Of a DNA stretch of 64,000 bases, positions 15,646 through 32,292 are shown in pieces (positions within the stretch are counted from its first letter, which is position 1; each line of letters opens with the position of its first letter). The position numbers and the translations under genes are program-made. The DNA comes from a bacterium (lineage in GTDB: Bacteria > SZUA-182 > DTGQ01): NCBI GenBank assembly GCA_023512255.1, contig JAILZY010000008.1:3508-67507 (forward strand), in the 5' to 3' direction. The notes beneath the pieces were generated by a model. The model made no database searches. It had not been told where the DNA came from and worked only from the letters and a program-made list of their open reading frames with translations.

Positions 15646-15689
15646 ACTTTTTTTGAGGAGAGGCGAAGCAGAAATCTGAGGAAAAGACA

Positions 15690-17012: not shown

Positions 17013-17270
17013 GCCAATAGTGGCGATGGTAGGTTGGAGGCTTTTATTCACCCTCACTAACACTAAAGCCTTCCCATCAAGGGGTAGGATGGGTATGAGG
17101 TTTGCCAATAAAAAATAGGGAACATTTAAAAAAATGACCATTTTGATTTGACAGCCTGATTTCAGGCTAGTTATACTTAATAATAAAGACTTTACTTATT
17201 ATATATTCATATTTTTGCATATTTATACTACTTTCTGTATATTTATACTATCTCTTATTAAAATTCGCTC

Positions 17271-17738
17271 TCATATATCAGACACCAGAGTGAGTCCTTT
17301 GTGGTGAAAGAATAATGAGTAAAAAAGGTTCATGAGTGTGGCAATAAAATCTTTAACATTCTGCAATGTCGAGTTTAAGATAAACATAGATCGTTCAAAA
17401 GCAGTCAAATTGCGATGATTACGCTGGAATTGAAATACCTTAGCATAATCAGGCAGGTATTCTTGGGATACCCCTCTGAAAGGGAGTATAAAGAGCAGCC
17501 AAGACAACCAAAGGCTCTCGGCACGGTTCTCATGTACATCTCCTCGAACATACTCTTTTTGGCTATGGTTGACCGTCTCGTGCTTATAGCCCGCTTTTCC
17601 CAAAAAGCTATAGCAAGAGGCAGTATCACTGTAAATGGTACTACCCTTTTCCACCCGCTTCTCAAAGGCCGCTCTCAAAGTCTCCTCTTTTACATCTGGG
17701 AGAACCTCTACCACTACTTCGCCTTGACGATTGGCCAT
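17271..17738 (-). CDS. IS1595-family transposase, C-terminal DDE part
   Basis: ISXO2-like DDE region in a different frame from the N-terminal piece. Combined length about 326 aa, equal to an intact IS1595 transposase. Confidence 0.6.
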   Translation of the reverse strand: MANRQGEVVVEVLPDVKEETLRAAFEKRVEKGSTIYSDTASCYSFLGKAGYKHETVNHSQKEYVRGDVHENRAESLWLSWLLFILPFRGVSQEYLPDYAKVFQFQRNHRNLTAFERSMFILNSTLQNVKDFIATLMNLFYSLFFHHKGLTLVSDI

Positions 17739-17786
17739 GCCCTTAATTACAGGGGAATCCTTCTGGGCCGATCCTCTTCCAGGCCC

Positions 17787-18302
17787 CTATTTCTTTCCTC
17801 TCCTGCGAGCAGGCCGATTCACGGCGATAGGATCATTCGCAGGACGACCAGCCTTATGCCCCGATGTCTGATAAATTTCATCCACTTCAATGACTCCGGA
17901 CAACCGTCTGTCTTGCTCCAATTTAATCTCCCGATTCCTTATGATCCGTACAGCTCTCAAGGCTGTGAGATAATTGCAGGGAATCTCTCGGGCAATCTGC
18001 AATGTTGTTTTCCCCAACTCTACCAGGTACATTACCAAAAACCAGGCAGACAAAGGAAGCTTGCTCTTTTCGAAGATAGTACCAGTACGGTCATTGAATT
18101 CTTTCCCACAACTATAGCAATGGTACCTATGGCACGCACTCTCCCAGGGAACAGTCCAGGGACCTGTCACCCCGCTCTGTCCACAGTATGGGCAGCGGAT
18201 AATCCCATCGGACCATCGATGGTTGCGAAGGACTCTGTAGCAGGCTCCTTCATCCAGCAAACTCTGAAATGTGTCTTTTCGACCGCAACACATGGCTTTC
18301 AT
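17787..18302 (-). CDS. IS1595-family transposase, N-terminal zinc-ribbon part
   Basis: CPYCG...CYSCGKEF zinc-ribbon transposase motif. Ends at a TAG, followed by a frame change into the DDE part. Confidence 0.65.
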   Translation of the reverse strand: MKAMCCGRKDTFQSLLDEGACYRVLRNHRWSDGIIRCPYCGQSGVTGPWTVPWESACHRYHCYSCGKEFNDRTGTIFEKSKLPLSAWFLVMYLVELGKTTLQIAREIPCNYLTALRAVRIIRNREIKLEQDRRLSGVIEVDEIYQTSGHKAGRPANDPIAVNRPARRRGKK

Positions 18303-18427
18303 AATTTATCAACTCCCTTTTCTATTTTATCACAGCGATGGCGTCTAATAAATTGAGAGCGATTTTTATACGAATCGACCTGGTACCCTATTTGGCATAA
18401 AATTAGGAGTAAAACAATGCGGCTTCG

Positions 18428-19213
18428 CTATCTCTGGGGCTTTGTTGTCTGCTTTCGCAGCATGAGCAGCTCATCGTCCAACCCGTGGCGGAGAAGATCG
18501 AGTCTGGATGACGCAGCCACGAGGCTTTCGGCGTGGACCGGCTTGATCCGGAACGGGAAGAGGCTCGGGCTGTCGATCAGATCTTTCAGCGGAGCCGAAC
18601 AGCTGGCCCGGGCGTGGAGGGACGCTTCGGCCAGCCAGGCGATCAGTCGGGAATCCTCAACAGCCAGCGTTGTCCCGGCAGAGTAAATGCCCTTTGCGCC
18701 GCTCTCCTGAAGCACGCCCCAGTCGAGGTACGAACGCAGCACGCGGCGGGCTGCTCGGGAAACGGTCTCCCGCTCGCCGTATTGCTCGCGAACCCTGCGC
18801 TGGACATGAGCCGCGGCAGCGGAGCCCTGAAGCCTCAGAAGACGGCCGGTCTGAGTGGCTACACACGACCAGAACGGGTAGACGGCCATGACCATCCCCC
18901 AGTGGATGGCTAGGCGCAAGTTATGAGGACTGAGGACTGAGTACTGAGTAGAAAGAAAGGCAAGACCGTCGTTTCGCAACGGAATGAGATCCTCTGGTGT
19001 AGTTACCCAAATCTTGCGCATGATAGAGATAATTTTATTACGATTACATCCCTTCGCCTGGCCGCCTATGGAAACCTTGTCCTTTAGTAGCTCTTGCAAG
19101 GCATCATTGATCGCAGCCTTGTCATTCCCTGCCAAGACCAGGTTGGCTGTCTGCTCAAGCCATTCCAGACGCACCCGCTGACTGAATCCGATATGGTTTC
19201 TCCTGTATGTCAT
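18428..19213 (-). CDS. hypothetical protein; candidate BrxA-like terminal gene of the BREX-like cluster
   Basis: Last gene in the same orientation, downstream of pglZ, as expected for brxA in BREX type 3. I cannot verify the DUF1819 fold by eye. Contains an in-frame partial heptad repeat (LSTQYSVLSPHNL). Confidence 0.3.
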   Translation of the reverse strand: MTYRRNHIGFSQRVRLEWLEQTANLVLAGNDKAAINDALQELLKDKVSIGGQAKGCNRNKIISIMRKIWVTTPEDLIPLRNDGLAFLSTQYSVLSPHNLRLAIHWGMVMAVYPFWSCVATQTGRLLRLQGSAAAAHVQRRVREQYGERETVSRAARRVLRSYLDWGVLQESGAKGIYSAGTTLAVEDSRLIAWLAEASLHARASCSAPLKDLIDSPSLFPFRIKPVHAESLVAASSRLDLLRHGLDDELLMLRKQTTKPQR

Positions 19214-19228
19214 TCAGAATTCCTCTTA

Positions 19229-19337
19229 CGGGTTACGAGTTATGGGTTACGAGTTACGAGTCATTAAACTCACAACTCACAACTCACAACTCTCAACTCG
19301 TAACTCATCATTACCCAGTCCTCATCACTCATCACTT
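19229..19337. repeat. palindromic array of heptanucleotide units (GTGAGTT / ACGAGTT / GGGTTAC, then GTGATGA GTGATGA GGACTG) in the pglZ-brxA intergenic spacer
   Basis: Seen directly. About 14 heptad units; the two halves are approximate reverse complements. Confidence 0.7.
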
Positions 19338-21428
19338 CCCCACGCCTCGCATCTCGATATGTACCAGAGGGACGATGAGTTCCTCGACTGAAACGCCGCC
19401 ATGGCTCACGATGCGCTGCTTTTCCTGGACAAACGTCTGCCGAGCGGGGGCCAGCAGGGCGAGGTAGTCCTCCGGGAGACCAACGGTTCCCCATTCCATC
19501 GCGGCGGGAAAGCGTTCCTTCACCTTGGCGCGTAGGGCCGCGTCGGGATAGATGCGGACCCGTTCGCCGCGCAGGTCTGCCACAGCCCCTTCGGATGGAC
19601 GACCGCAGCCTTCCGCCTCGATGTTGCCATGATCAGAGGTCAAATAAACAAGGAAGCCCCGATCCAAGAGCAGATCGAGGAGTGTGTTCAGATACGGCTG
19701 CTTGGCCCACTGGCGCACCTGGTTGTGCATCCCGGCGGTGCCCATTTCCATCCCATGCATGATCCTGTCGACCTTGTCCACGACCAGCCCGACGACCCTT
19801 GCCTTGGTATGAGAAAGCGCTTCGGAAACGCTTTCCAGGCCGCCGTCGCCCAGACCCTTGAGGTAGACGACCTCGTTTGGTGCGAGGCCCTGATCTGCCC
19901 AGAACTGCGCCCAAAGTGCTGGTTCCTTGTCCGTGGTCTGGATGCTGTTCGGGAAAAAGATGGGAGCCTTGCCGGCAAAAGTTGCCTGGCGTGAGACTGA
20001 GGTAAGCGAAGGAATCCAGGCAAAGACCGCCTGCTCCCGGAATCGCAGTCCGGGCTGCTTTGCGGCAAGTGCTTCGCGGATCACCAGCCATTGGTCCAGG
20101 GCAAGGCCGTCGATCACCAACAAAGCGAGCTTTGTTGGTGATCGCAGTGATGAGTGATGAGGACCGGGTAGTGAGTTGGCCAAAAAGAGCGGGATATGAT
20201 GAACCATGGCCGGCGGATTTGGAGGCAACTGGATAAGTCCTGCATATCGCCTCTGTATCCAAGATAGAAATCGCTGATCGACCCTTCGTGTAAGTGCATC
20301 GATACGATCATTCTGTCTTTCACTCAGTCCCCAGTCCTCATTACTCATTACTTTCAATTCCGCCCATCCGCGGGCAAAGTGGAGCCAGTCCGTGTGCTTC
20401 GCGTCCTTGGCCGGGATGGATGCCTCTAGGCTGTCGATGAGCTTGGCCAGACGACGGGACCTGTCCTCTGTGGGAGCCGCTCTAACGCCGATGCCTACCC
20501 AGGTTTTGGACAGGGTTTCCGCATACTCGTGTGGGACTGGATGCAGCACACCCTCGACGAACAGGTTGTCGATGTAGACCCGGATGTCATGGTGGTCGAA
20601 GGGAAGTTCGACAGGTCCCTTGATGGATAGACCGTAGGGCTTCTCTTCCTCACGAACGACTGCCTGTGCCGTGCCCGGCACGGCAGACAGGCCTGCCTGT
20701 TCCGAGGCTTCGGCAGGCCTGCCGGACGCCCCTTTGGCTGCCTCACGGTCAAGAAAGATCGGCCAGCGCTCTTGGAGGAACGCGAAGAAGGCTTCCCTGT
20801 CCGCCACCAGTGTCTCAAGTGGCCATTCGTCGAAGATGTTAGTCTGGCGCAGAAGCTGGATGAACCGCTCGTCGAGGATAGCAGGGATGCGTTGTCCGCG
20901 GTAGTGACGGCGCAGGAGTACCCGCAGGAGGTCCGATGGCTGTTTGATCAGCTCGGGAGCGATTTCAAAGACGTGCCGGAGGACGAACTCCTTGGTGGCG
21001 TTGTCGCTAAGCTGGCCAGGTGCATGTCGGATCGAAGCCTGATACAAGGCATCGAGATCTCCTCTGTCCAGGGCGCTCACAACCGGGCAGCTTAGGTTCG
21101 GAAAGATTTCGCCGAGGTTGAAGGAGAGTTTGCGACCGGCCTGGAGTAGATCATAGGGTAACCCGCTGAGGTCGCTTGCTTGGGAGCGCAATACCACAAC
21201 GAGGTCCGTGTGCTCCCCGCGGTCCCAGCGGGAGCGAAACTTCGATTCATAGGCGTAGCGGAACGCGATACGGTCTTCGAACGGGATCAGCTCAAAGCCA
21301 CGCTCGCGGATGCCTTCGAGAATGCCTTCTTCGAGGAGCAGTCCGTCCGGATCGGCCACTAGGGTGAGTCGAGCGACCTTCGGAGTGAATTCCTTCAGGA
21401 TTTGATCGCGCCAGCTACTCATGGCCAC
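19332..21428 (-). CDS. pglZ: PglZ-domain protein (alkaline-phosphatase superfamily; BREX/Pgl core component)
   Basis: PglZ signature LALLVIDGLALDQW...SLTSVSR...TSDHGN, about 700 aa. Confidence 0.8.
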   Translation of the reverse strand: MAMSSWRDQILKEFTPKVARLTLVADPDGLLLEEGILEGIRERGFELIPFEDRIAFRYAYESKFRSRWDRGEHTDLVVVLRSQASDLSGLPYDLLQAGRKLSFNLGEIFPNLSCPVVSALDRGDLDALYQASIRHAPGQLSDNATKEFVLRHVFEIAPELIKQPSDLLRVLLRRHYRGQRIPAILDERFIQLLRQTNIFDEWPLETLVADREAFFAFLQERWPIFLDREAAKGASGRPAEASEQAGLSAVPGTAQAVVREEEKPYGLSIKGPVELPFDHHDIRVYIDNLFVEGVLHPVPHEYAETLSKTWVGIGVRAAPTEDRSRRLAKLIDSLEASIPAKDAKHTDWLHFARGWAELKVMSNEDWGLSERQNDRIDALTRRVDQRFLSWIQRRYAGLIQLPPNPPAMVHHIPLFLANSLPGPHHSSLRSPTKLALLVIDGLALDQWLVIREALAAKQPGLRFREQAVFAWIPSLTSVSRQATFAGKAPIFFPNSIQTTDKEPALWAQFWADQGLAPNEVVYLKGLGDGGLESVSEALSHTKARVVGLVVDKVDRIMHGMEMGTAGMHNQVRQWAKQPYLNTLLDLLLDRGFLVYLTSDHGNIEAEGCGRPSEGAVADLRGERVRIYPDAALRAKVKERFPAAMEWGTVGLPEDYLALLAPARQTFVQEKQRIVSHGGVSVEELIVPLVHIEMRGVGK

Positions 21429-24369
21429 CGCCCTCCACCCGAATCACAACCAGCGGCACCATGTCGGGATAGGTGTGAGCCTTCTGATCGAGCTGCTCAT
21501 GGAAGCTCCGCTCCTCTTGGGTCAGGAGGTTCAGGCGATAGTTGCGGACCTGGGGCAGGCCAATTCGCTCGATGGTTTTGCGGCGTGCGGCAAAGGCGTA
21601 GTCTGCCTTCTCACGCTCGCGTGCGATGCGGCCCCGATGCTCTTGCAGGAGCGCTTCGTAGATAGGTTTCCCGTGTTCCTCTGCGGCGCTTTGCAGCTTT
21701 GCTAAAGAGGCTTGGGAGACCTTGGCGTCAAGGACGGACCGGACCTTTATGTTTGCTGCGAGGAGCTGATCCCACACGTGTCTGGCCGTCGGCATATAGA
21801 CCATGCCGTTGTCGGCCAAAAAGAGAGGCATGATCCGCCTGCGGCGGGTCTCCGGTCCTGGGCCCAAGGTCACGGGGCCGTCCCACCGACTCGCGACCCG
21901 CGACCCGTTACTCACAATCGAGATTTGCCACAAGGACCAGATGCCCTGGACCTCCCCGGAGAGACCGGGGATTGATACGATAGGAACCGGCTGGCCCGGC
22001 GCAAAGCGGGGAAGTCGCATGGCCAGTTCGCGAATCCTAGGCTCTTCAAGGGTAAGATGCCGGGCGGTCGGAAGCCTCTCGGCTTCCTTGCCGGTGAAGA
22101 CTACATTCTCGTAGGTCTCACCGTCGGGCCAGGTGAGGTTCCAGCTCTGGCGTCTTTTCTCGGCCTGGCCGCCGTGCGCCTTCAGGTAGCTCACGGTCAT
22201 ACGCTCGATCCAATGGGGCAAGGGGTGAGTCAGCAGCCGCTGGGCTTCGCCAGGCTCCAGATCCTCGGTCGCGCCAAGTACCGATGCGGTCGTGCGCGCC
22301 TCGCGAGCCTGCTCCTGCAAGCGGGCAATCACGCTCTCCACGGATTCCTCCACCTTTTCGGGGTTGAGGATCGCCTCGACATACATCTCGTCGAACATGT
22401 GGCTCGCCTGGGCCGAGTCAAGGACGTCGCCGGTCTTGTCAATGCCGAACTCCTCGAAGATGACGGCGAGCTTCTGCTCCAGTACTTCAAGGACCCGATG
22501 CTCAACCGATCCTTCGAGGACCAAGTTAACCGCACGCACCGTATGAGCTTGGCCGATACGATCCACCCGACCAATCCGCTGTTCGAGTCGCATCGGGTTC
22601 CAGGGGATGTCGTAGTTGATCACCACGTGGCAGAACTGGAGGTTCAAACCCTCCCCGCCGGCGTCGGTGGAGATGAGAATCCGGACATCCTTGGCGAATG
22701 CCTCCTGGGCCCGCTTACGCTCTTCCATGTCCATAGAGCCATTCAGGCAGACGACTGAAAACCCGCGCTCTGTTAGGAACCAACGCAACATCTCTTGGGT
22801 GGGAACGAACTCGGTGAACACCAGTACCTTAAGCTCAGGGTCGCTCTCCTCGGCCTGGAGGCGGTAGAGCCAGTCTAGCAGTGCCTCGGCCTTGGCGTCT
22901 GGTCCGATCTGCTCGCAGCGAGCCGCGGCCTCCAAGAGCATCTTTACCTCGGCGCGCTCGTTCTTGAGCGCCTTGAGGCGGGTGCGAAGCAACACCTCGA
23001 TCTGCTCCTGGCCGTCCAAGTCAGCCCATTCCTCTTCGGAGTTGAGGGGGAACAGGGTCAGTTGTTCCTGAGGTGCGGCGAGCGCCTCGAGCCGCCTTTC
23101 AAGCGTAATGCGGATAGCTCTTGTGCTGGAGACCACAAGGCGCTGCATCAGGATCATCAGAAAGCCGATATAGCTGCGTTTCTCCCGCATGGCCTGGTTG
23201 TAGCCTTCGCGTACGTATTCTGTGACCGCCTCGTAGAGGAGCTGCTGATCGCGGTGCCGCTCTTTCCATGAGACCGGAGCAAGCTGTGTGCGCCGCGGCT
23301 TGAACAGCGGGTTTCCCTCTACGTCAATGGCGCGGCGCTTTTCGGTGCGGATGACATGCGGTTGGACTCGCTCGCGGGTGACGCTGCTCGTGTCCGGGAA
23401 TTCCTGGGTGTCGATAAGGGAAACGAGCCGATGAAAGGCGTCGGTCTTGCCCTGGTGCGGGGTCGCCGAAAGCAGCAGGAGATATGGCGCGGACTCGGCC
23501 AGCCCCTGGCCCAGTTTGAAGCGGGCCACCTGGTCGGTGCTGCCGCCCAGACGGTGCGCTTCGTCCACGATGACCAGGTCCCAGCCGGCGGAGATCAGGT
23601 CCTCGAACCGTTCGCGGGCCGCCGCGCCGCCGCTTCCCGCCGCAGGTTTGACGGAATCCATGGGAACCACAATCTGATCTAATATCCGAAAAGGATTCTG
23701 TGCGTCTCGGCGGAGTACTGAGGACTGAGTGCTGAGGACTAAGCGGTTTTCTTCATACTCAGTCCTTAGTCCTCGTGCCTCAGTCCTGTGGATTGCCGAG
23801 ATGCGCTTCAAGGTGCGGTAGTCTTCCGTAAGAACTTGATGGAACCGTTCATTGAAGTGCATTGCCATCTCGGCAATCCACTGCGTGACCAGCCCCTTTG
23901 GGGCGATGACCAGCGTCCGCTTGACCAGTCCGCGAAGCTTAAGTTCCCGCATAATGAGCCCAGCCTCGATGGTCTTGCCCAGGCCGACCTCGTCCGCCAG
24001 GAGATAGCGCACCCGGTCGCTGCTAATGGCGCGGGATAAAGCATGGATCTGGTGAGGAAGCGGAATGACGGAGGACTCAATGGGTGCGAGCAGGACGTCC
24101 TGTGTCAGTGCATCTGCTACCCGCGCGGCCGCAGCAATGTAGGCGATATGGTCCGCCGAACCGGTACCTGCACTATCCAGTGGTTTAAGTCTGGAAGCCG
24201 CCGGGATGCGGACCACCGAGTCGCTCCCGGGCAGCCAGACATGGCAGGTCGTCTCGCCCCAGAGCGTCTGGACTTCGATGACCTGACAAAGCTGCCCGTG
24301 GTCCGGGGAATACAACCACGAATGAACACGAATGGACTCAAATAAGTTCATAGGACAAGTCTCTCCCAT
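21415..24369 (-). CDS. SNF2-family superfamily-2 helicase (BrxHII-like)
   Basis: Motif I LADEVGLGKTIEAGL; DEAH box IVDEAHRL; C-terminal helicase domain; 984 aa. Confidence 0.8.
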   Translation of the reverse strand: MGETCPMNLFESIRVHSWLYSPDHGQLCQVIEVQTLWGETTCHVWLPGSDSVVRIPAASRLKPLDSAGTGSADHIAYIAAAARVADALTQDVLLAPIESSVIPLPHQIHALSRAISSDRVRYLLADEVGLGKTIEAGLIMRELKLRGLVKRTLVIAPKGLVTQWIAEMAMHFNERFHQVLTEDYRTLKRISAIHRTEARGLRTEYEENRLVLSTQSSVLRRDAQNPFRILDQIVVPMDSVKPAAGSGGAAARERFEDLISAGWDLVIVDEAHRLGGSTDQVARFKLGQGLAESAPYLLLLSATPHQGKTDAFHRLVSLIDTQEFPDTSSVTRERVQPHVIRTEKRRAIDVEGNPLFKPRRTQLAPVSWKERHRDQQLLYEAVTEYVREGYNQAMREKRSYIGFLMILMQRLVVSSTRAIRITLERRLEALAAPQEQLTLFPLNSEEEWADLDGQEQIEVLLRTRLKALKNERAEVKMLLEAAARCEQIGPDAKAEALLDWLYRLQAEESDPELKVLVFTEFVPTQEMLRWFLTERGFSVVCLNGSMDMEERKRAQEAFAKDVRILISTDAGGEGLNLQFCHVVINYDIPWNPMRLEQRIGRVDRIGQAHTVRAVNLVLEGSVEHRVLEVLEQKLAVIFEEFGIDKTGDVLDSAQASHMFDEMYVEAILNPEKVEESVESVIARLQEQAREARTTASVLGATEDLEPGEAQRLLTHPLPHWIERMTVSYLKAHGGQAEKRRQSWNLTWPDGETYENVVFTGKEAERLPTARHLTLEEPRIRELAMRLPRFAPGQPVPIVSIPGLSGEVQGIWSLWQISIVSNGSRVASRWDGPVTLGPGPETRRRRIMPLFLADNGMVYMPTARHVWDQLLAANIKVRSVLDAKVSQASLAKLQSAAEEHGKPIYEALLQEHRGRIAREREKADYAFAARRKTIERIGLPQVRNYRLNLLTQEERSFHEQLDQKAHTYPDMVPLVVIRVEGGGHE
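23714..23790. repeat. ~77 bp imperfect-palindrome repeat element built from GAGGACT-type heptads, in-frame inside the helicase gene
   Basis: The 3' 30 nt are identical (one mismatch) to the copy at 28617-28696. Translated in-frame as RTEARGLRTEYEENRLVLSTQSSVL. Confidence 0.7.
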
Positions 24370-24731
24370 TCGAGTTTTGGCTTTTTGAAATTGAGGATAA
24401 GGCCGACTTTGAGCTGGGTAATCTTCAGGTAGTTGAGCATCTGGCCACGTTCAACATCCGTAATACGGTCAATCGTCTTGGCGTCGACCACGATCTTATC
24501 AAAGGCAATCAAATCGGGAATGTAATCGCCCACCTTGACACCTTTGTAAATTACATCGAAGCGCGGCTGCTGCTTGTAAGGGATTCCTCTCAGGCCAAAT
24601 TCAACAACGAGTGCATTTTCATACGGCTTTTCCAGCAACCCATGCCCAAGCGTATTGAACACCTCCATGGCGCAGCCAACGATCTGGAATACCTCATCTT
24701 TGAACAGTAATTTGTGTTCCTTCGTGTCCAT
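24348..24731 (-). CDS. GxxExxY-family small protein (PD-(D/E)xK nuclease-like fold)
   Basis: 127 aa. VGCAMEVFNTLG matches the GxxExxY motif, with downstream D/E-x-K-type residues. Overlaps the helicase start by 22 nt. Confidence 0.65.
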   Translation of the reverse strand: MDTKEHKLLFKDEVFQIVGCAMEVFNTLGHGLLEKPYENALVVEFGLRGIPYKQQPRFDVIYKGVKVGDYIPDLIAFDKIVVDAKTIDRITDVERGQMLNYLKITQLKVGLILNFKKPKLEWERLVL

Positions 24732-24740
24732 TCGTGGTTC

Positions 24741-25667
24741 TCACTCCTCCCCCGCTCGAGTAACCGCCTGGTCGTACCACATGAGGAGCTTGGGGTCTTT
24801 CTGGAGGACGTTCTCAGGAATTTTGCGGGCCACAGCGATGATGGTGGCATAGTCGCGCTCCTGCCATGCCTTCTTGAATCCGGCCCGGACCGCCTCAAGG
24901 CGGAAGACCTTCAGTTTCCGCTGGCTGGAAGCCAGCGCCACACTGGAAGCCAGCGCCACATATTCTTGAAATTCCTTGAGCAGGGACCGCTCGCGCAGCT
25001 TCTCCAGGTCGATGGCCTTGTTCGGGTCAGGCACATACCAGCGGTCCTTGGCTTCGCGAAGCAGTCTCGGGTCCTGAGTCTCGAGTCCCGAGTCTTCTGA
25101 TCCGTCACCCGCGACCCGCGACTCGCGACTGATCAACTCCCGCCATGTAGCACTCTGCTTCATCCACGAGACGATTTGTTTTGGAATAGGCCCCTTGCCG
25201 TCATAGCGCAAGAAGTTCTGCTCCAGCAGCTCGGAAAGCTCCAGCAGCCTCTCGTGCTTATGCCAGCCGCTGATCTCCTTGAGGAATTGGGGGTGCAGTT
25301 CCTGGAAGGTCTGTGGCTTCCGTGTGAGCTGCTGTTTGAGCCACTCGATGGCTGAGGCCTCATCCGTGACAAAGAGCGGAAGCTGCACAAAGAGCGGAAG
25401 CTGCACAAAGAGCGGAAGCTGCAGCAACTTTCGGACAGCCATCCGCTTTTTGTCATACTCAGCCACCTGCTCGGGCAGGAAGTACATCCCGTCCCGTTCT
25501 GGGAAACGCTGGGCCAGCCCAGCGTAAAACTCCCCAGCGGATATCGGAACCATCACCCCACGCTGCACATGAAAGGCCACCATGCGGTCAAAGAGTAGGT
25601 AATTCTGGCGCTCGGCGATGATTTCCAAGGTGGAGCCTGCATCTTGCAGGCTATCTTCTTGCTGCAC
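24741..25667 (-). CDS. hypothetical protein, possibly the frameshifted C-terminal portion of the PglX-like methyltransferase
   Basis: Follows methyltransferase piece 2 after 10 nt in another frame. The three pieces sum to about 1255 aa (PglX-like size). Contains two in-frame 18-bp tandem repeat arrays. Confidence 0.35.
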   Translation of the reverse strand: MQQEDSLQDAGSTLEIIAERQNYLLFDRMVAFHVQRGVMVPISAGEFYAGLAQRFPERDGMYFLPEQVAEYDKKRMAVRKLLQLPLFVQLPLFVQLPLFVTDEASAIEWLKQQLTRKPQTFQELHPQFLKEISGWHKHERLLELSELLEQNFLRYDGKGPIPKQIVSWMKQSATWRELISRESRVAGDGSEDSGLETQDPRLLREAKDRWYVPDPNKAIDLEKLRERSLLKEFQEYVALASSVALASSQRKLKVFRLEAVRAGFKKAWQERDYATIIAVARKIPENVLQKDPKLLMWYDQAVTRAGEE

Positions 25668-25677
25668 CGGCTGACTT

Positions 25678-26910
25678 TTATTTTTGTTTAGCCTGCTGGA
25701 AGCAGGCTCTACTTTGCTTAGCCTGCTGGAAGCAGAACTCAGCCTGCTGGAAGCAGGCTCTCACAAATACCGGCAGTTGCTTCAGGTGAGTGCGGACAAA
25801 GTCCCAAACGCCTTGCTCCGTCCCCGCTTCGAGCTTGAAGCGTTCCTCTAGGCCACCGTTTGGCTTGTAGCAGGAGATGATGAGGTCCTGTTTGACCGCG
25901 GATGCTGAAGTTACCTGCTTGAAAGAACCTTGCTGCTTGTCCAGCGTGCGCACATCAGCAATGACAAAGCACGCGGCCTGCAGGGCCTCCTGGATCGCGT
26001 TCCAGACCGCGTTCTTGGAGTTGTGAAATTCCACCGTCATCCAGTGGCCCGGCTTGAGCACCCGGTAGTATTCTTTGAAACATTCGGTCATGAGCTTCTG
26101 GTATTCTGGCAGCCCTTTGCCCTGGGCGGTGTTTTCGATGGCCTCAGGCTTGTTGTTGGTAAAAACCTTAAGCCACGCCTCCCAGAGGAAATTCAGCTCA
26201 GAATACATCAGGTTGCCACCAAAGGGTGGGTCGGTGAAGATGTAGTCGATGGATTCGCCTGGTATTGGGAATACTGAAGAATCACAACAACCAATGGATG
26301 CCACCTTGATCTCGCCAAACCGTGGAGCTTCATGTTTTATGAGTCTCTGCAATTTACCGGTAAGAATGTAACCGGAAGACACTTCTACCTGTTGCGAACC
26401 GACGTATAACGTGCCACTAAGATACCGGTTTACTTGCGAAAAATGAGTAGGGACATACCGCGATATTTTCGCGAATCCCAGCGCCGCATACTGTATGAAA
26501 AACAAGCTCAATTTGTGCCGTGCCTTAAATGCCTTATCATACATCCCCCCCAGCACCCACAGATTCCGTCTGGTATAGAAATGGTGCACATGGGTGATGC
26601 CGTGGGAAACTTTAGGTTGCTCCGTGTTATAGCCCTCCGGCATACGATCCGTCGGAAACCAATATGGTATTTCCATCTGCTCAATTTTTTCGATAAGTGC
26701 TAGATCGAAGGCGTCGGGCGTCTTTTCGAATCGCTGCTTTCCCACGCTATAGTTGATGAGCACCGGCACTTGTTTGGCTTGCCTGATGGTCTGATTAATA
26801 GCCTTATCAAATTTGGTAACCCAAGCCCGTTCCATTAGGCGTTTGGTGAGCAGGGTGCCGCAGTGGGGGCAGGGAAATTTGTCATGGATTTTGCCCGCTT
26901 CCTTATTCAC
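25678..26910 (-). CDS. DNA methyltransferase fragment (amino-methyltransferase catalytic motif DPPF), piece 2; in-frame continuation of 26920..28533 across a TAG
   Basis: Catalytic motif IV IFTDPPFGGN. Begins with a CPHCG half zinc ribbon. Starts at GTG three codons after the TAG of the upstream piece, in the same frame. Confidence 0.7.
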   Translation of the reverse strand: MNKEAGKIHDKFPCPHCGTLLTKRLMERAWVTKFDKAINQTIRQAKQVPVLINYSVGKQRFEKTPDAFDLALIEKIEQMEIPYWFPTDRMPEGYNTEQPKVSHGITHVHHFYTRRNLWVLGGMYDKAFKARHKLSLFFIQYAALGFAKISRYVPTHFSQVNRYLSGTLYVGSQQVEVSSGYILTGKLQRLIKHEAPRFGEIKVASIGCCDSSVFPIPGESIDYIFTDPPFGGNLMYSELNFLWEAWLKVFTNNKPEAIENTAQGKGLPEYQKLMTECFKEYYRVLKPGHWMTVEFHNSKNAVWNAIQEALQAACFVIADVRTLDKQQGSFKQVTSASAVKQDLIISCYKPNGGLEERFKLEAGTEQGVWDFVRTHLKQLPVFVRACFQQAEFCFQQAKQSRACFQQAKQK

Positions 26911-26919
26911 GGCAGCCTC

Positions 26920-28533
26920 CTAGAAGACTACCTCTTGGGTGCAGTTTGGGCAGACAAAGACATCGGACCAGACGGTATAGTTGATTTTTCCCAGTGGAGC
27001 CGGCTTCCAGCCGGCTGAAACCAATTCTTTTGCTACATACCGCCATTCATAATCCAGCGGCCGCCTTACCAGGCCAGCTTTGACCGGGTTATGGTTTACA
27101 TAAGCCAGTGTGGCCATCAGTTCTTTGCTATCGCGGATGATTCGATCATAGCTTTCCGTCTGCCATACTGTAGTCCCAGTTTTTTGCTCCAATTTATTCA
27201 CTTCATTGGCTGAATAGCTTTTAACACTGTGAAGAATCTCAGATAGATCCCAGGGTGCGTCTTTTTGTTTTTCGAGAGGTTTGGCCACGATATGAACATG
27301 ATCTGGCATAACCACCGCAGTGAACACCTTCCAGCGCTTTTGATCCCAGAATAAAATCGCATCCAGAACAATTTTCCTGGCTGGTTCACTGAGAACGCGC
27401 AGGTCGTGTGTTCTGAATGTAACAAAATAAGTGGCCCCGGGAACCTGGATGTGGGGTAGGTTATCTTTTCTGAAGGTTGATTCGTTTGTCTGAAATGGAT
27501 TGCAGGGCTCGAAGTTTATTGCTGATATAAGCCTGCTGGAAGCAGGCTCTACATGCAGGGTCTCATACATCCAGCCGCATTCGGCTTCCACTTCCTTCAG
27601 GATGCGCCTGGCTTCACGCTCAAAGGCCACGACATCCACCGGGGTGTTGTAGTTATAGGCGATGAAGGTGGCAGCAGGCGACAGGTCATTCAAGACAGCC
27701 CGCCGCGCGCCAAGTTTCGAAAATGGTTTCCAGATGGTTTTGCCGCTCTCTTCGGTTTCCTTCTGATAGATCACCCCGTCCTTATCCACCCGGTAGCCCA
27801 GCGCCTCGACCGCTGCTTTATCCCCGCACATCTGCGCTGCTACGCCGGTCATCCCTGTCCCGCAGAAGCCGTCGAAAACGATATCCCCAGGCTCGGTGTA
27901 ATGCAGGATGTAGCGCATTACGGCCTTGTGCGGCACCTTAGTGTGGTAGGAGTGGGCATTGTAGATCGGATCGTTCTTGCCCTCGCTCACATCCGCGGCA
28001 AAGGGCTCGCGGTGATAGGGTTTATCCACAAAGGCACACGAAGCCCCACCAAGAGATTTCTCTTGTTCGTACATCTTCGTGTCCTTCGTGGATTCCCAAT
28101 ACCTTACCATGTCGGCGATGAAGGGATTGGGGCAGGCGGTGTAGTAGGGTGGGTCGGATAGTGCCAGGATGTCCTCGTCGCTGCCGTGCGGGAAGCCGAC
28201 CTCGTCCTTGTAAAGGCTGAGGAGGTCTCGGGGCACGGGTCGTGAGTCGCGGGTCGATGATGCAGCGTGGGCGATGCGTCCTGCCAGGTAGCGGATTTGC
28301 TCGTCATTGCCCAGCAGCCAATGCTCGAGGGATTTCAGCCGCTGGTAAGTATCTTCGAGACTCGTAAAGGGGACGGAAAGCTTTTCTCGCATCTCCTGCA
28401 AGCCTGCTCGCAAAATGCCGAGAAAAGCTTTCTGCCGCTCTTCGTCGTTCGGGAACGTTAGCCCCAAGCAGGTCACGGGTTTATGGTGTTTGATTTCTGG
28501 TTTCTCGTTGTCGAATAGGATGTCCATGTTCAT
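26920..28533 (-). CDS. DNA methyltransferase N-terminal module fused in-frame to an IS200/IS605-type Y1 HUH transposase domain, piece 1
   Basis: Methyltransferase motifs SDPPYY (aa 127-132) and FDGFCGTGMTG (aa 220-230). Y1 transposase domain at aa ~362-495 with HUH motif PDHVHIV and catalytic-Tyr motif VWQTESYDRIIRD. C-terminal CPNC half zinc ribbon, then TAG. Confidence 0.75.
   Translation of the reverse strand: MNMDILFDNEKPEIKHHKPVTCLGLTFPNDEERQKAFLGILRAGLQEMREKLSVPFTSLEDTYQRLKSLEHWLLGNDEQIRYLAGRIAHAASSTRDSRPVPRDLLSLYKDEVGFPHGSDEDILALSDPPYYTACPNPFIADMVRYWESTKDTKMYEQEKSLGGASCAFVDKPYHREPFAADVSEGKNDPIYNAHSYHTKVPHKAVMRYILHYTEPGDIVFDGFCGTGMTGVAAQMCGDKAAVEALGYRVDKDGVIYQKETEESGKTIWKPFSKLGARRAVLNDLSPAATFIAYNYNTPVDVVAFEREARRILKEVEAECGWMYETLHVEPASSRLISAINFEPCNPFQTNESTFRKDNLPHIQVPGATYFVTFRTHDLRVLSEPARKIVLDAILFWDQKRWKVFTAVVMPDHVHIVAKPLEKQKDAPWDLSEILHSVKSYSANEVNKLEQKTGTTVWQTESYDRIIRDSKELMATLAYVNHNPVKAGLVRRPLDYEWRYVAKELVSAGWKPAPLGKINYTVWSDVFVCPNCTQEVVF
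27049..27450 (-). other. embedded IS200/IS605-family Y1 (HUH) transposase-like domain within the methyltransferase ORF
   Basis: GATYFVTFRT...PDHVHIV...TVWQTESYDRIIRD...HNPVKAGLV carries all hallmark motifs of TnpA(IS200)/RAYT. Confidence 0.7.
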
Positions 28534-29072
28534 TCCGTCCCTGGCGTAACAATTAAAAAATCGTGAACTGGATATCGTCTGTATTCTGGGTGATCCGGCG
28601 TCGCATAGACCAAATAGAGTGATGAGGACTGAGTGATTAGTGCTGAGTCTTCGGACGTCTCTGACTCAGTCCTCAGTCCTCGTGCCTCAGTCCTGATTTT
28701 GCCGCTCCAAGCCGCGACCACCGTCTTGTTCCGCGAGAGCCTCTGCAGAAGCCGCAACGGGTCCTGCTTGAGAGAGACATCGAAGAGGACCTCGATGTTG
28801 TCCAGCAAAACCACATCGGCTGCGGATGCGCCCACGATATCTGCAAGGAGGCGGGGCAACTGCAAGGCCCGCTGGCGCTCGGTGAGGTCGAGCATTCGCC
28901 GGGAAAGCTCGAGGTTGACGTTGACCAGAGGAGCCGCCGTGCGCTCATGGACATCCTGGAGAGCGGCGGTCTTGCCCGCACCAGCCGGGGCCACCAACAT
29001 GACAAGCCGGTGGTACAGCTCGGCAGCCTGGCCAATTCTCTTTATGACTCTATCGGCGAGTGGCTCCGCCAT
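28530..29072 (-). CDS. P-loop NTPase, BrxF-like (BREX type 3)
   Basis: Walker A LVAPAGAGKTAAL. Small size and first position in the cluster fit BrxF. The likely start is MAEPLADR at 29072; the track ORF extends to 29132. The C-terminus carries an in-frame repeat-element insertion. Confidence 0.5.
   Translation of the reverse strand: MAEPLADRVIKRIGQAAELYHRLVMLVAPAGAGKTAALQDVHERTAAPLVNVNLELSRRMLDLTERQRALQLPRLLADIVGASAADVVLLDNIEVLFDVSLKQDPLRLLQRLSRNKTVVAAWSGKIRTEARGLRTESETSEDSALITQSSSLYLVYATPDHPEYRRYPVHDFLIVTPGTE
28617..28696. repeat. second copy of the same palindromic heptad element, in-frame near the C-terminus of the BrxF-like gene
   Basis: Shares GATGAGGACTGAGTG...ACTCAGTCCTCAGTCCTCGTGCCTCAGTCCTG with the copy at 23714-23790. 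Encodes IRTEARGLRTESETSEDSALITQSSSL. Confidence 0.7.
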
Positions 29073-29097
29073 TAGCGATCTCTCTTCCCGAACCAAG

Positions 29098-29241
29098 CTA
29101 ATTCGCCCGCGTTTTTTCAAGCCAATGGTCAATGGCTCCTTTCTGGAAACGCCAGTGTCGGCCGATTCTCTGGGAGAGGATCTTGGCTTCCCGAACGAGC
29201 TTGTAGAGTGTTGACTTCGGCATTTTCAGGTAGGCGGCCAA
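29098..29241 (-). CDS. small excisionase/AlpA-family HTH DNA-binding protein
   Basis: Found by manual translation; not in the ORF track because under 60 aa. LSIEELAAYLKMPKSTLYKLVREAKILSQRIGRHWRFQKGAIDHWLE matches the excisionase-family HTH consensus. The start codon is uncertain: TTG at 29241 or ATG at 29223. Confidence 0.5.
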   Translation of the reverse strand: MAAYLKMPKSTLYKLVREAKILSQRIGRHWRFQKGAIDHWLEKTRAN

Positions 29242-30031
29242 CTCTTCGATGCTCAGTACATCACCTGGTTTTTTTCATCCATCAAGCGCATCTTTCTGGT
29301 CTTAACAAGCTCATCTTTCTGGTCTTAAGGCAAAGTTCGACCCAGCATGCCTCATATCAAGCTCATAATTTAAAGTTATTGGTAGTTGATGTCAAGCGCT
29401 TTTGAAGCGCAGAGGGGCCTAAACCCAACATTTGTGACACCAAGGGCACTAAGAGTTTAACCCTCTTCACCAAGATGTTCCCCATCTTTAAATTTGAAGG
29501 ACGATTTACTACCTCCTCCCTTAAACTTTAATAAATTATGAGAACATGGTTAATATTTAGTTTAACACTTTTTTCCGATAAAGTCTATTTTTCAAGGCAG
29601 ACATAAAAAGGGGGAGGAGCCGGAAAGAGGAGGGCTAGGCTTTGTGGTCATTACCTTTTTTGTTCATTACTCTTCCGGCTCTCTCCCAAGGGGAAGTAGG
29701 GAAGCGCTCCGTGCAGGGGAAAAGTTATTTGGGCAAGGGACGATCCTTGTGATCGTCCCATTTCAAGCGCACCCTGCAGGGGAAAAAAGAGCTATCTTTG
29801 ATCCTCATTTAAGAGGATCTTTGAGATGAGCGAGCTAATGTTATCTTATCCGAAATTATCATCCCCTCGGAATCCCCTGATGGTCCCGCACTGTGTGGGT
29901 GGACTGTGGCTTACTGCTTCCGGTGTCTGCTCTTAGGCCTAATATTCCTCCCTACCTAGAGATCCCGAGGGGTAGCATCTGAAATAACTATCGCTGCTCA
30001 TTATTCGGATTCTAAAAAATCCTCAACCCGG

Positions 30032-30391: not shown

Positions 30392-30648
30392 AGGGAACAT
30401 TTTTCTCCGATTTGATGCTTTCTTAATATGAGTAATAAGCATCCGATATGCCATCTGAGGAAGAATAAAGGTACAAGGAGAGATAAAGCAGTCAAATAAA
30501 CGACTTGTCGTTTTGGCAGATGGCAGCCGCCACCTTATTGAGTAGCAGAAAAGCAACTTTATAGACAAAATGAAGTCGCTTTTTTGCTCCTATTCCTACT
30601 AATGGCTGGGCAACCGTCTCTTGTCTGTTTTTTTCAGTCTGTTCTTTT

Positions 30649-32127: not shown

Positions 32128-32292
32128 ACCAAACCCACTAAAATCAAGGGTTCAGAGAAAAAGTGCAAAAGTATAGTAAAAATCTTTACGCTTTTATTTA
32201 TTAGCTACCATTGAGAGACATAACCCTAATAAGAGCCTAAACCCCTTCATCTGATATAGGGTTTATGGTGTCTGATATATAAGAGCGAATCT

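What the first reader, a model, noticed from the sequence alone, without database searches (positions are those of the whole stretch)
18428..29250. BREX type-3-like defense island lacking brxC, headed by an excisionase-type HTH gene and flanked by an IS
The gene order on the minus strand is: small AlpA/excisionase HTH; BrxF-like P-loop; PglX-like methyltransferase (in three pieces); GxxExxY PD-(D/E)xK-like protein; SNF2 helicase (BrxHII-like); PglZ; BrxA-like. This matches brxF-[brxC]-pglXI-brxHII-pglZ-brxA of BREX type 3, but the ~1200-aa BrxC ATPase, normally universal in BREX, is missing. A GxxExxY protein and an HUH domain are present instead. The island sits between housekeeping genes (mtaD side and nifX-like side) and abuts an IS1595 element, which is consistent with horizontal acquisition. 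It is either a new PglZ-based system variant or a decaying BREX locus.
Basis: partly seen in the sequence, partly recalled or inferred. Interest (0 to 1): 0.75.

Follow-up and report, generated by a model that had tools for sequence, protein, structure and literature searches.

The report
Decayed type-3 BREX island missing brxC
This is a horizontally acquired type-3 BREX phage-defence operon that has lost its brxC ATPase gene by a clean deletion and carries a broken methyltransferase gene, so it is most likely a dead relic and not a new kind of defence system.

Summary
On the minus strand of 18428-29282 lie an HTH_17 gene, brxF, pglXI in three pieces, a GxxExxY gene, brxHII, a BREX-3 pglZ and brxA. 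No brxC is present anywhere in the 64 kb.

The "new PglZ variant" reading does not hold. About 120 related loci were informative. In 68 of 72, brxC starts about 50 nt after brxF. In 3 only brxC fragments follow, and in 1 nothing is recognised. pglXI never follows brxF directly. In the window, brxF's last codons and stop come from the pglXI leader, which is the scar of a deletion of about 4 kb.

Four further lesions are present:
- In pglXI, a TAG replaces a tryptophan found in the two closest relatives, inside the zinc finger.
- In pglXI, a cluster of inserted palindromes shifts the reading frame.
- The HTH gene has a +2 frameshift (A7 where relatives have A5).
- The HTH gene has a premature TAG.

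An independent assembly reproduces the brxF-pglXI junction exactly. Sister strains at about 96% identity lack the island at both flanks.

The "HUH domain" is a REP-associated tyrosine transposase (RAYT) inserted in frame in pglXI. The same insertion occurs in at least 11 other PglXI proteins. Close relatives of this RAYT sit inside ValRS, AlaRS, LeuRS, DnaK, PriA, RecG and PurH. That side observation is the most interesting result here.

The parts
17259..18368 (-). IS1595-family insertion sequence bounded by 15-nt inverted repeats. Its transposase is broken into two ORFs (17787-18302 Zn-ribbon, 17271-17738 DDE). It marks the left edge of the strain-specific segment.
   Evidence: Pfam PF12760 and PF12762. 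Inverted repeats at 17259-17273 and 18354-18368. Collinearity with sister strains stops at 17265.
18428..19213 (-). brxA (BREX-3 BrxA homologue, 261 aa), an intact ORF with a short in-frame heptamer-array insertion at 18924-18948.
   Evidence: PADLOC PDLC02444 BrxA 331 bits, no Pfam hit. 80-86% identical to the gene after pglZ in relatives. Insertion shown.
19332..21428 (-). pglZ (BREX-3 type), an intact ORF. NCBI calls it at 696 aa. It is 23 residues longer than the Syntrophus buswellii copy (L006), with in-frame palindromic insertions at 20658-20720 and 20130-20147.
   Evidence: NF033449 849 bits, PF08665, PADLOC PglZ 992 bits. Homologues. Insertions.
21415..24351 (-). brxHII (SNF2/RapA-like helicase; 978 aa from the ATG at 24351), an intact ORF. 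GLGKT and DEAH motifs are present. It carries in-frame heptamer hairpin insertions at about 23698-23788 and 21844-21907.
   Evidence: PADLOC PDLC02500 1503 bits; PF00176, PF00271. Sequence. Insertions. Exact 978-aa product on record.
24348..24731 (-). GxxExxY / PDDEXK_3 small gene bracketed by 30-nt inverted repeats (24314-24343 and 24710-24739). It is a passenger cassette, not a BREX component.
   Evidence: TIGR04256 133 bits, PF13366 124 bits. Inverted repeat I2. In relatives the homologue sits at a different junction, between brxHII and pglZ (L009, L030, L038, L083).
24741..28533 (-). pglXI (BrxXI methyltransferase) pseudogene in three ORFs: 26920-28533, 25678-26910 and 24741-25667.
   Evidence: PADLOC PglXI and MTase_II models cover positions 1-306, 387-771 and 782-1067 in the three pieces. 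Intact relatives are single ORFs of 944-1141 aa.
26920..26922 (-). In-frame TAG in pglXI. It replaces a residue that is W in the two closest relatives and most others (L in some), and lies between the two CxxC pairs of the zinc finger in the DNA-recognition (TRD) insert.
   Evidence: Sequence ...EVVF*EAAVNKEAGKIHDKFPCPHCG, against L085 EVVFWEAAVDK, L083 DVVFWDVAYD and L009 EVVFLDEALD. Zn-finger context from PMC12839542.
25634..25765 (-). Cluster of REP-like palindromes (AGCCTGCTTCCAGCAGGCT and variants) inserted after ...THLKQLPVFV. It ends in a stop and shifts the frame. This is the second lesion of pglXI.
   Evidence: Sequence. Pattern search: all 6 sites in the window lie inside pglXI, 0.03 expected. 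Hairpin folds. Relatives read through (L085, L083), and L009 has an in-frame insert at the same site.
26994..27550 (-). REP-associated tyrosine transposase (RAYT) module inserted in frame in the pglXI TRD insert. It is flanked by two REP hairpins in inverted orientation (27530-27548 and 26998-27016), which are translated as EPASSRL and AGWKPAP.
   Evidence: NF047646 96 bits (cut-off 80), PF01797. Hairpins. Same site and same flanking peptides in 11 other PglXI proteins, HUH and Tyr motifs conserved.
28530..29132 (-). brxF (probable start ATG 29072, 180 aa). It carries a 23-codon in-frame heptamer-hairpin insertion (28614-28682) and a chimeric 3' end: the last codons and the stop derive from the pglXI leader. 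This is the brxC deletion scar at about 28530-28545.
   Evidence: NF033453 181 bits; PADLOC BrxF 236 bits. Alignment A1. Junction comparison. Logan contig 100% identical across the junction.
29098..29282 (-). HTH_17 (excisionase/MerR-type) first gene of the operon, now a pseudogene. An A7 run at 29269-29275 stands where relatives have A5 (+2 frameshift). A TAG at 29098-29100 stands where relatives have a glutamate codon followed by 7 more codons.
   Evidence: PF12728 46 bits, TIGR01764. Comparison with 11 relatives. A homologue lies directly upstream of brxF in 28 of 68 loci.
29283..29603 (-). Island-specific upstream region. A 23-nt tandem duplication (29283-29328) lies immediately 5' of the HTH start and may be an operator or promoter region. 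The right edge of the strain-specific segment is at about 29603.
   Evidence: Tandem repeat. Collinearity with sister strains resumes at 29604.

Best explanation
The locus is a type-3 BREX operon with the order HTH regulator, brxF, [brxC], pglXI, brxHII, pglZ, brxA. It arrived by horizontal transfer in one strain of this organism and has since been inactivated.

Shown:
- A deletion of about 4 kb removed brxC and both of its spacers. It runs from the last few codons of brxF to the ribosome-binding region of pglXI, so brxF now ends on a stop codon supplied by the pglXI leader.
- pglXI is broken twice. One lesion is a nonsense codon (tryptophan in the closest relatives, TAG here) in the zinc finger of its DNA-recognition insert. 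The other is a frameshift caused by a cluster of REP palindromes.
- The palindromes belong to the RAYT transposase that lives in frame inside pglXI.
- The HTH gene is frameshifted in an A-run and truncated.

Inferred:
- In studied type-1 BREX systems, the BrxC ATPase and the methyltransferase are both required for host methylation, and all components are generally required for restriction. On that basis this locus can neither methylate nor restrict.
- The still-open brxF, brxHII, pglZ and brxA reading frames are remnants that have not yet accumulated stops.
For: Component identity.

Canonical architecture in relatives:
- brxC (PF19557/DUF6079, PADLOC BrxC about 1930-2000 bits) lies between brxF and pglXI.
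- Of 72 loci with at least 300 nt after brxF, 68 have the brxC N-terminus next (median gap 50 nt), 3 have brxC fragments, 1 has nothing recognised, and none has pglXI next.
- Of 49 loci with at least 700 nt before pglXI, 41 have brxC there, 8 have other cargo, and none has brxF directly adjacent.
- There is no BrxC-like sequence in the window.

Deletion scar: the brxF C-terminus departs from the relatives' ...PEAVA* exactly where similarity begins to the pglXI leader GAGGAATGAAAACGATGG of L098, L007 and L129.

Other lesions:
- pglXI.
- HTH.

Not an assembly artefact: Logan contig L169 is 100% identical over window 27842-29588. The 410-aa middle piece of pglXI is on record with identical ends in a Logan contig (P0001).

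Strain-specific island.

Literature:
- All BREX types encode PglZ and BrxC (PMC12205998).
- Type-3 has six core components including the BrxC-MTase-PglZ tripartite core (PMC12839542).
- BrxC is required for methylation in Acinetobacter type-1 BREX (PMC9122589).
- Restriction generally requires all components (PMC13326643 abstract).
Against: - brxF, brxHII, pglZ and brxA (about 6 kb) are still open reading frames, and every palindromic insertion in them is in frame. All four point lesions fall in the first 4.5 kb. If lesions were spread evenly this would have a probability of about 0.04 (my own estimate), so some selection on the distal genes cannot be excluded.
- The excess of private substitutions at otherwise invariant columns is modest (7 in PglZ, 10 in BrxHII). 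Apparently intact relatives such as L009 and L085 show similar numbers.
- The requirement for BrxC has been shown experimentally only for type-1 BREX, not type 3.
- Only 64 kb of the genome is visible, so a brxC elsewhere cannot be ruled out.
Confidence: 0.85

Rival explanations
1. This is a functional BrxC-less variant of type-3 BREX. BrxF, BrxHII, PglZ and BrxA work without the large ATPase. The methyltransferase is either dispensable or is expressed by read-through and frameshifting.
For: Four of the six core ORFs are intact, and all of their insertions are in frame. The deletion kept operon continuity, leaving an ATGA overlap. PglZ is reported to be a nuclease in type-1 BREX (PMC12205998), so an effector is still encoded.
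Against: The architecture is unique among about 120 informative relatives. The junction is a deletion scar, not an ancestral arrangement. pglXI and the HTH gene carry nonsense and frameshift mutations. TAG is used as an ordinary stop by host genes. Other loci with partial brxC deletions (L131, L133, L164) are plainly degraded. L133, for example, has no pglXI, brxHII or pglZ match in the 10 kb downstream of brxF.
Confidence: 0.04
2. The locus is complemented in trans. A brxC (or a second complete BREX system) elsewhere in the genome supplies the missing ATPase and methyltransferase, and this locus contributes extra helicase, PglZ and BrxA.
For: Only 64 kb of the genome is visible. The distal genes remain open.
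Against: Nothing BrxC-like lies in the 64 kb. In relatives brxC is always encoded in cis, directly after brxF. Sister strains lack the island altogether, so no resident partner system is implied.
Confidence: 0.05
3. This is a reversible OFF state (phase variation) of an otherwise working system. Slippage in the A-run of the HTH gene and changes in palindrome or heptamer copy number switch genes on and off.
For: Disrupted pglX genes are frequent, and phase variation of pglX is known in BREX/Pgl (PMC9122589 introduction). The HTH lesion lies in a homopolymer. The pglXI frameshift lies in a tandem cluster of repeats. Heptamer arrays (a period not divisible by 3) are 3.5 times denser inside BREX-3 genes than in their flanks.
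Against: The brxC deletion and the TGG-to-TAG change are not reversible by slippage. The heptamer arrays inside ORFs are all in frame here and are not the cause of any lesion.
Confidence: 0.03
4. This is an assembly artefact. The brxF-pglXI join and the stops come from mis-assembly of a metagenome bin.
For: The locus is full of short repeats. It also sits where two host segments meet that lie on different contigs in sister strains, next to an IS, so the contig as a whole could be chimeric at the IS.
Against: A contig built by a different assembler (Logan) is 100% identical over 1747 nt spanning the HTH lesions and the brxF-pglXI junction. The pglXI middle ORF with the same ends is on record from Logan. 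The junction itself contains no long repeat.
Confidence: 0.03

Closest known systems
Type-3 BREX (brxF-brxC-pglXI-brxHII-pglZ-brxA; Goldfarb et al. 2015 classification as summarised in PMC12839542)
   Same: Five of the six core genes are present in the canonical order, with subtype-specific model hits (BREX_3_BrxF, BREX_PglZ_3, PglXI, BrxHII, BrxA). PglZ is 80-87% identical to annotated BREX-3 PglZ proteins. An HTH_17 gene leads the operon, as in 28 of 68 relatives.
   Different: brxC is deleted. pglXI is a pseudogene (amber codon plus frameshift). The HTH gene is frameshifted. The genes carry numerous in-frame palindromic and heptamer insertions, and there is a RAYT inside pglXI.
Degraded or phase-off BREX loci with disrupted pglX (noted in the BREX literature, PMC9122589 introduction)
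   Same: The methyltransferase gene is interrupted while the other genes look intact.
   Different: Here the universal ATPase gene is also gone, and that loss is irreversible. Related metagenome loci (L131, L133, L164, L115, L097) show other partial brxC deletions, but none shows a clean brxF-pglXI fusion of the operon.
REP-associated tyrosine transposases (RAYT / TnpA-REP) with their REP/REPIN hairpins
   Same: There is a full-length match to the NCBIfam equivalog. The HUH (HVH) and Y..NP motifs are present. The gene is flanked by two copies of a 19-nt palindrome in inverted orientation, with further copies nearby.
   Different: It is not a free-standing gene in an intergenic REP cluster. The RAYT and its REPs are translated in frame as part of the PglXI protein. 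The closest relatives of this RAYT are likewise embedded in housekeeping proteins.
DUF499/DUF1156 'BREX-related' systems (PMC12839542)
   Same: They share a homologous ATPase, methyltransferase and SNF2 helicase.
   Different: Those systems lack PglZ and keep the ATPase. Here PglZ is present and the ATPase is missing. The methyltransferase pieces score only weakly against DUF1156 models (37 bits, cut-off 1000).

Membership tests
BREX type 3 | PglZ of the BREX-3 subtype | tested here: met
   NF033449 849 bits (cut-off 250), PF08665 88 bits, PADLOC PglZ 992 bits.
BREX type 3 | BrxC/PglY large ATPase (DUF6079, PF19557), encoded between brxF and pglXI | tested here: not met
   No tblastn hit with E<1 in 64 kb using three BrxC queries. 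The brxF stop overlaps the pglXI start. brxC is present in 68 of 72 relatives at that position.
BREX type 3 | PglXI/BrxXI methyltransferase (PF01555 with internal TRD insert and 4-Cys zinc finger), intact | tested here: not met
   Homology is clear (PADLOC PglXI 400/576/427 bits). The gene is nevertheless split by a TAG inside the zinc finger and by a frameshift.
BREX type 3 | BrxHII SNF2-type helicase | tested here: met
   PADLOC PDLC02500 1503 bits over 14-981; PF00176 and PF00271.
BREX type 3 | BrxF small P-loop (iSTAND) protein | tested here: met
   NF033453 181 bits (cut-off 50); PADLOC BrxF 236 bits; GAGKT motif present; alignment A1.
BREX type 3 | BrxA homologue after pglZ | tested here: met
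   PADLOC PDLC02444 331 bits over the full length. No Pfam hit, which also holds for the orthologous genes in relatives.
BREX type 3 | Site-specific host methylation and exclusion of unmethylated phage DNA | not testable with these tools
   This needs a methylome and a phage challenge. Loss of function is predicted from the lesions.
RAYT (REP-associated tyrosine transposase) | Y1 HUH transposase fold with HUH motif and catalytic Tyr, scoring above the equivalog cut-off | tested here: met
   NF047646 96.1 bits (cut-off 80), model positions 4-145 of 146. MPDHVH and YVNHNP motifs are conserved in alignment A2.
RAYT (REP-associated tyrosine transposase) | Flanked by REP palindromes in inverted orientation | tested here: met
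   The sites are 27530-27548 and 26998-27016. The pattern has 6 sites in the window against 0.03 expected, and they fold as hairpins.
RAYT (REP-associated tyrosine transposase) | Free-standing gene in extragenic REP clusters | tested here: not met
   It lies in frame inside pglXI with no start or stop of its own. The same holds in 11 other PglXI proteins.
IS1595 family | Zn-ribbon plus DDE_Tnp_IS1595 transposase between terminal inverted repeats | tested here: met
   PF12760 and PF12762. Inverted repeats of 15 nt, 1110 bp apart end to end. The transposase is split into two ORFs, so the element is probably inactive.
GxxExxY protein (TIGR04256 / PDDEXK_3) | Full-length match to the family model | tested here: met
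   TIGR04256 133 bits (cut-off 35); PF13366 124 bits.

The most novel reading that the evidence does not exclude
In this lifestyle a clade of RAYTs lives, together with its REP hairpins, in frame inside host protein-coding genes.

Evidence in PglXI:
- Here and in at least 11 other PglXI proteins, the RAYT sits at one precise site in the DNA-recognition insert.
- At that site it is bounded by translated hairpins (EPASSRL ... AGWKPAP).
- In L009 the whole 1141-aa fusion is an intact ORF.

Evidence elsewhere:
- 45 of the 150 closest representatives of this RAYT are 400 aa or longer.
- Of the 19 checked, 18 proved to be housekeeping proteins (ValRS, AlaRS, LeuRS, DnaK, PriA, RecG, PurH) with the RAYT inside; one (P0411) gave no Pfam match.
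- The same host families recur.

This pattern is intein-like homing without any splicing motif. In the present locus, extra REP copies from this element caused the frameshift that helped to kill pglXI.
Probability: 0.45. Interest if true: 0.7.

Novelty: new member of a known kind. Interest (0 to 1): 0.3.

Why it matters
For the finding as stated, the result is mainly a caution. A PglZ island without brxC is not evidence of a new system unless relatives share the architecture. Here they do not, and the locus is a relic.

It does give a well-documented snapshot of how a BREX-3 operon decays:
- clean loss of brxC;
- methyltransferase knock-outs;
- regulator frameshift;
- colonisation by small selfish elements.

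It also shows that brxC loss recurs in related degraded loci.

The by-product could matter more. RAYT/REP modules, and heptamer hairpin arrays, are tolerated in frame inside defence genes. For the RAYT clade the same holds inside essential housekeeping genes across phyla. This would extend what is known about how HUH transposases persist.

Tried and rejected
- Exact look-ups of the first pglXI piece (537 and 535 aa) found nothing. The brxF look-up then gave the Logan contig that confirms the junction.
- The first attempt at the representative search used the wrong frame.
- The tRNA scan and Rfam scan of the island and its edges were empty, so no integration-site tRNA or known RNA element is present.
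- No direct repeats flank the island.
- TAG reassignment or pyrrolysine read-through was considered as a rescue of pglXI. It was rejected because TAG terminates ordinary host ORFs and because a frameshift follows anyway.
- The RAYT or the GxxExxY protein as a replacement for BrxC was rejected. Both are passengers also found in loci that keep brxC, and neither sits at the brxC position.
- The relative-rate and private-substitution test for relaxed selection on pglZ, brxHII and brxA gave only a weak signal. Some intact relatives show the same signal, so it is not used as evidence.
- Literature searches for in-frame RAYTs or heptamer hairpin insertions in BREX genes found nothing relevant.
- Host taxonomy could not be resolved beyond 'MAG: bacterium'.

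Full report
WHAT IS THERE

The segment 18.4-29.3 kb has 55-61% G+C against 43-50% around it. On the minus strand it carries nine reading frames. Profile searches identify them without ambiguity:
- a 47-aa HTH_17/excisionase-type ORF (29098-29241);
- BrxF (28530-29132; NCBIfam BREX_3_BrxF 181 bits, cut-off 50);
- three consecutive ORFs that together cover a PglXI methyltransferase (26920-28533, 25678-26910, 24741-25667; PADLOC PglXI 400, 576 and 427 bits);
- a GxxExxY/PDDEXK_3 protein (24348-24731);
- the SNF2 helicase BrxHII (21415-24369; 1503 bits);
- a BREX-3 PglZ (19332-21428; NF033449 849 bits, cut-off 250);
- BrxA (18428-19213; PADLOC 331 bits).

The brxF stop overlaps the pglXI start codon (ATGA). 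No other ORF of 700 aa or more exists in the 64 kb. That IS has inverted repeats at 17259-17273 and 18354-18368, and its transposase is split in two.

IS THE LACK OF brxC A FEATURE OF A FAMILY OR AN ACCIDENT OF THIS LOCUS?

PglZ has thousands of close homologues. They are 80-87% identical in Syntrophus, Dehalococcoides, Synergistota, Hydrogenedentes and many metagenomes, which points to a widely transferred island.

I fetched three sets of related loci:
- 80 loci around PglZ homologues from species-representative genomes;
- 80 loci around BrxF homologues from metagenomes;
- the nearest PglZ relatives with long contigs.

In these loci the order is HTH_17, brxF, brxC, [0-4 kb of variable cargo], pglXI, [cargo], brxHII, [small GxxExxY or 23S-rRNA-IVP gene], pglZ, brxA. 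The gene after brxF is a 1240-1300-aa DUF6079 protein that scores about 1930-2000 bits on the PADLOC BrxC model.

Counting gives the following.
- Of 72 loci with at least 300 nt visible after brxF:
  - 68 have the brxC N-terminus next, at a median distance of 50 nt;
  - 3 have only brxC fragments (L131, L133, L164, all visibly degraded);
  - 1 has nothing recognisable;
  - none has pglXI next.
- Of 49 loci with at least 700 nt visible before pglXI:
  - 41 have brxC there;
  - 8 have other cargo;
  - none has brxF directly adjacent.

Three BrxC proteins used as tblastn queries find nothing in the window (best E 1.4). The closest relative with context (L083, PglZ 86%) has a complete set including a 1296-aa BrxC and an intact 944-aa PglXI.

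THE JUNCTION IS A DELETION SCAR

BrxF in the window is complete apart from an in-frame 23-residue insertion (alignment A1). Its last residues (...IVTPGTE*) depart from the ...V(N/S)PEAVA* of its relatives. The DNA from that point on (GGAATGAAC-ATGGACATCCTATTC) resembles the leader and start of pglXI in L098, L007 and L129 (GAGGAATGAAAACGATGGGCGACCTTTTC). So a deletion ran from the last codons of brxF to the ribosome-binding region of pglXI. It removed brxC and both spacers (about 4 kb), and brxF now terminates on a TGA supplied by the pglXI leader.

The junction is not an assembly artefact. A 1747-nt contig built by a different pipeline from run SRR15214128 is 100% identical to window 27842-29588.

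FURTHER INACTIVATING LESIONS

(a) pglXI piece 1 ends at an in-frame TAG (26920-26922). Here L085 and L083 have tryptophan (VVFWEAAVDK, VVFWD) and L009 has leucine. The codon lies between the two CxxC pairs of the zinc finger that crowns the TRD insert described for BrxXI (PMC12839542).

(b) After ...THLKQLPVFV, a cluster of 19-nt palindromes (AGCCTGCTTCCAGCAGGCT and variants) runs into a stop. The reading frame resumes one base off.

(c) The HTH gene has A7 where eleven relatives have A5 (ATGGATGAAAAACCAGG...). This gives MDEKNQVMY* instead of MDEKPGDVL(T/S)IEEL....

(d) The HTH gene also has a TAG where relatives have a glutamate codon followed by seven more codons.

TAG is an ordinary stop in host genes. 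The middle pglXI ORF with the same ends is on record from an independent assembly (P0001).

WHAT THE 'EXTRA' GENES ARE

The GxxExxY gene is bracketed by 30-nt inverted repeats. In relatives it lies at another junction, between brxHII and pglZ (L009, L030, L038, L083). 23S-rRNA-IVP genes occupy similar intergenic slots (L001, L083, L085, L086). These genes are passengers and do not substitute for BrxC.

The HUH domain is a full-length REP-associated tyrosine transposase (NF047646 96 bits, cut-off 80). It lies in frame within pglXI and is flanked by two copies of the palindrome in inverted orientation. These copies are translated as EPASSRL and AGWKPAP. All six copies of that palindrome in the 64 kb lie inside pglXI, against 0.03 expected. 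The copies at the second lesion are the direct cause of the frameshift.

HORIZONTAL ORIGIN AND CONTEXT

Contigs from sister strains, at about 96% nucleotide identity, are collinear with window 5783-17265 and with window 29604-46946. They carry neither the IS nor the BREX genes. In those strains the two flanks lie on different contigs and have other neighbours: a radical-SAM gene and pilMNOPQ after the amidohydrolase, and AhpC-like and FMN-reductase genes before the NifX-like gene.

The strain-specific segment is therefore 17266-29603. It sits at a rearrangement joint, or conceivably at a chimeric join at the IS. No tRNA, Rfam family or flanking direct repeat marks an integration site.

HOW IT MOST LIKELY WORKS, OR RATHER DOES NOT

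Reviews and recent work agree that PglZ and BrxC are the two universal BREX genes (PMC12205998). Type 3 has six core components built around the BrxC-MTase-PglZ core (PMC12839542). [quoted passage not shown] Restriction generally needs all components (PMC13326643 abstract).

By extension, which is inference because no type-3 system has been dissected, a locus without brxC and with a truncated methyltransferase can neither mark the host genome nor restrict phage. I put the relic interpretation at 0.85.

The main reservation is that brxF, brxHII, pglZ and brxA remain open. All their insertions are in frame, and the GLGKT and DEAH motifs are present in BrxHII. The private-substitution test shows only a mild excess, which some intact relatives share.

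The rivals together get about 0.15. They are a working BrxC-less variant, complementation in trans, a reversible OFF state and an assembly artefact.

COMPARISON AND NOVELTY

The locus works like, and descends from, type-3 BREX. As a system it fails two defining features that were tested: BrxC is absent and PglXI is not intact. I therefore file it as a degraded member, not as a variant. Disrupted pglX genes are a known feature of BREX loci (PMC9122589). Partial brxC deletions recur among the metagenome relatives (L097, L115, L131, L133, L164). The finding as stated is ordinary.

WHAT I NOTICED BEYOND THE FINDING

(1) The RAYT insertion is not a one-off.
- Eleven other PglXI homologues carry it at exactly the same site with the same flanking peptides and conserved HUH and Tyr motifs. 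Those that carry a source name include Deltaproteobacteria bacterium TL4 and Rubrobacteraceae.
- In L009 the fusion is one intact 1141-aa ORF.
- A search of 1.84 billion representatives with the RAYT segment gave 45 hits below 1e-30. 45 of the best 150 are 400 aa or longer.
- Of the 19 I scanned, 18 are housekeeping proteins with the RAYT inside: ValRS, AlaRS, LeuRS, DnaK, PriA, RecG and PurH. The nineteenth (P0411) gave no Pfam match. Some carry names such as 'DnaK/REP element-mobilizing transposase RayT', and the PriA cluster contains a member seen on 48 contigs.
- No intein motifs are evident.
- I found no paper describing this.

(2) Tandem heptamer arrays arranged as hairpin pairs pepper the BREX genes of the window and of many relatives, but not their flanks. 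There are 110 arrays in 1.01 Mb of BREX spans against 26 in 0.85 Mb of flanks. L085 has 12 against 0 and L083 has 10 against 0. Inside ORFs they are in frame.

Noticed in passing
window 26994-27550 (-); L009:1197-4622; proteins P0242-P0260, P0400-P0503: The RAYT in pglXI belongs to a clade that is often embedded in frame in host proteins. It sits at the same site in 11 other PglXI proteins. Of 19 long representatives scanned, 18 are housekeeping proteins carrying the RAYT inside: ValRS, AlaRS, LeuRS, DnaK, PriA, RecG and PurH. The remaining one (P0411) had no Pfam match. 45 of the best 150 RAYT representatives are 400 aa or longer. No intein motifs were seen, and no paper describing this was found.
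   Followed up: partly
window 18924-28694 (for example 28614-28682, 23705-23795, 19226-19307, 25063-25129, 28224-28256); L083, L085, L086, L038, L071, L080: Heptanucleotide tandem arrays occur as hairpin pairs, (AGGACTG)n ... (CAGTCCT)n and variants. They are found only inside the BREX genes of the window and are 3.5 times denser inside BREX-3 spans than in flanks over 168 loci. Within ORFs they are in frame, giving peptides such as RTEARGLRTE...TQSS. Their origin is unknown: inheritance within the island lineage or targeted insertion.
   Followed up: partly
window 17266-29603; L170-L172 and L174-L176: Sister strains (about 96% identity) lack the IS1595 and the BREX island. In them the left flank (amidohydrolases) and the right flank (NifX-like gene, sigma-54 activator) lie on different contigs with other neighbours. 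The island therefore sits at a large rearrangement or deletion joint, or the contig is chimeric at the IS.
   Followed up: partly
window 24314-24739; L083:2404-2772 and 9545-9946; L085:3008-3388 and 6442-6819; L086:73-453; L001:8640-9020: Small GxxExxY (PDDEXK_3) and 23S-rRNA-IVP (four-helix-bundle) genes occupy different intergenic junctions of BREX-3 operons in different relatives. In the window the GxxExxY gene is framed by 30-nt inverted repeats, which suggests a mobile cassette.
   Followed up: no
L037:4153-5976, L041:4355-6100, L065:799-3635, L002:12036-13204, L083:5614-6699: The spacers brxC-pglXI and pglXI-brxHII are cargo slots in relatives (0-4 kb). Contents include Schlafen/AlbA_2-HATPase_c_4 regulators, AbiEi/AbiEii, DUF3644, and toxin-antitoxin or DUF1016-like genes. 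These look like embedded accessory defence genes.
   Followed up: no
window 29283-29328: A perfect-to-96% 23-nt tandem duplication (CAAGCGCATCTTTCTGGTCTTAA) lies immediately upstream of the HTH start. One copy corresponds to the conserved sequence preceding the ATG in relatives. It may be an operator or promoter duplication.
   Followed up: no
window 28240-28400 (pglXI residues about 45-100): The window's PglXI has a private insertion of about 52 residues (…QEMREKLSVPFTSLEDTYQRLKSLEHWLLGNDEQIRYLAGRIAHAASSTRDSRPVPRDLLSLYKDEV) where all 13 aligned relatives have REKLKDPEFRKIE. Its origin was not examined.
   Followed up: no
L001 (GCA_020062745.1, JAGUVT010000104.1): In this locus brxF, a split brxC and a split pglXI are followed directly by a type-III CRISPR-like RAMP gene cluster, not by brxHII-pglZ-brxA. 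This is another rearranged or degraded BREX-3 relative.
   Followed up: no
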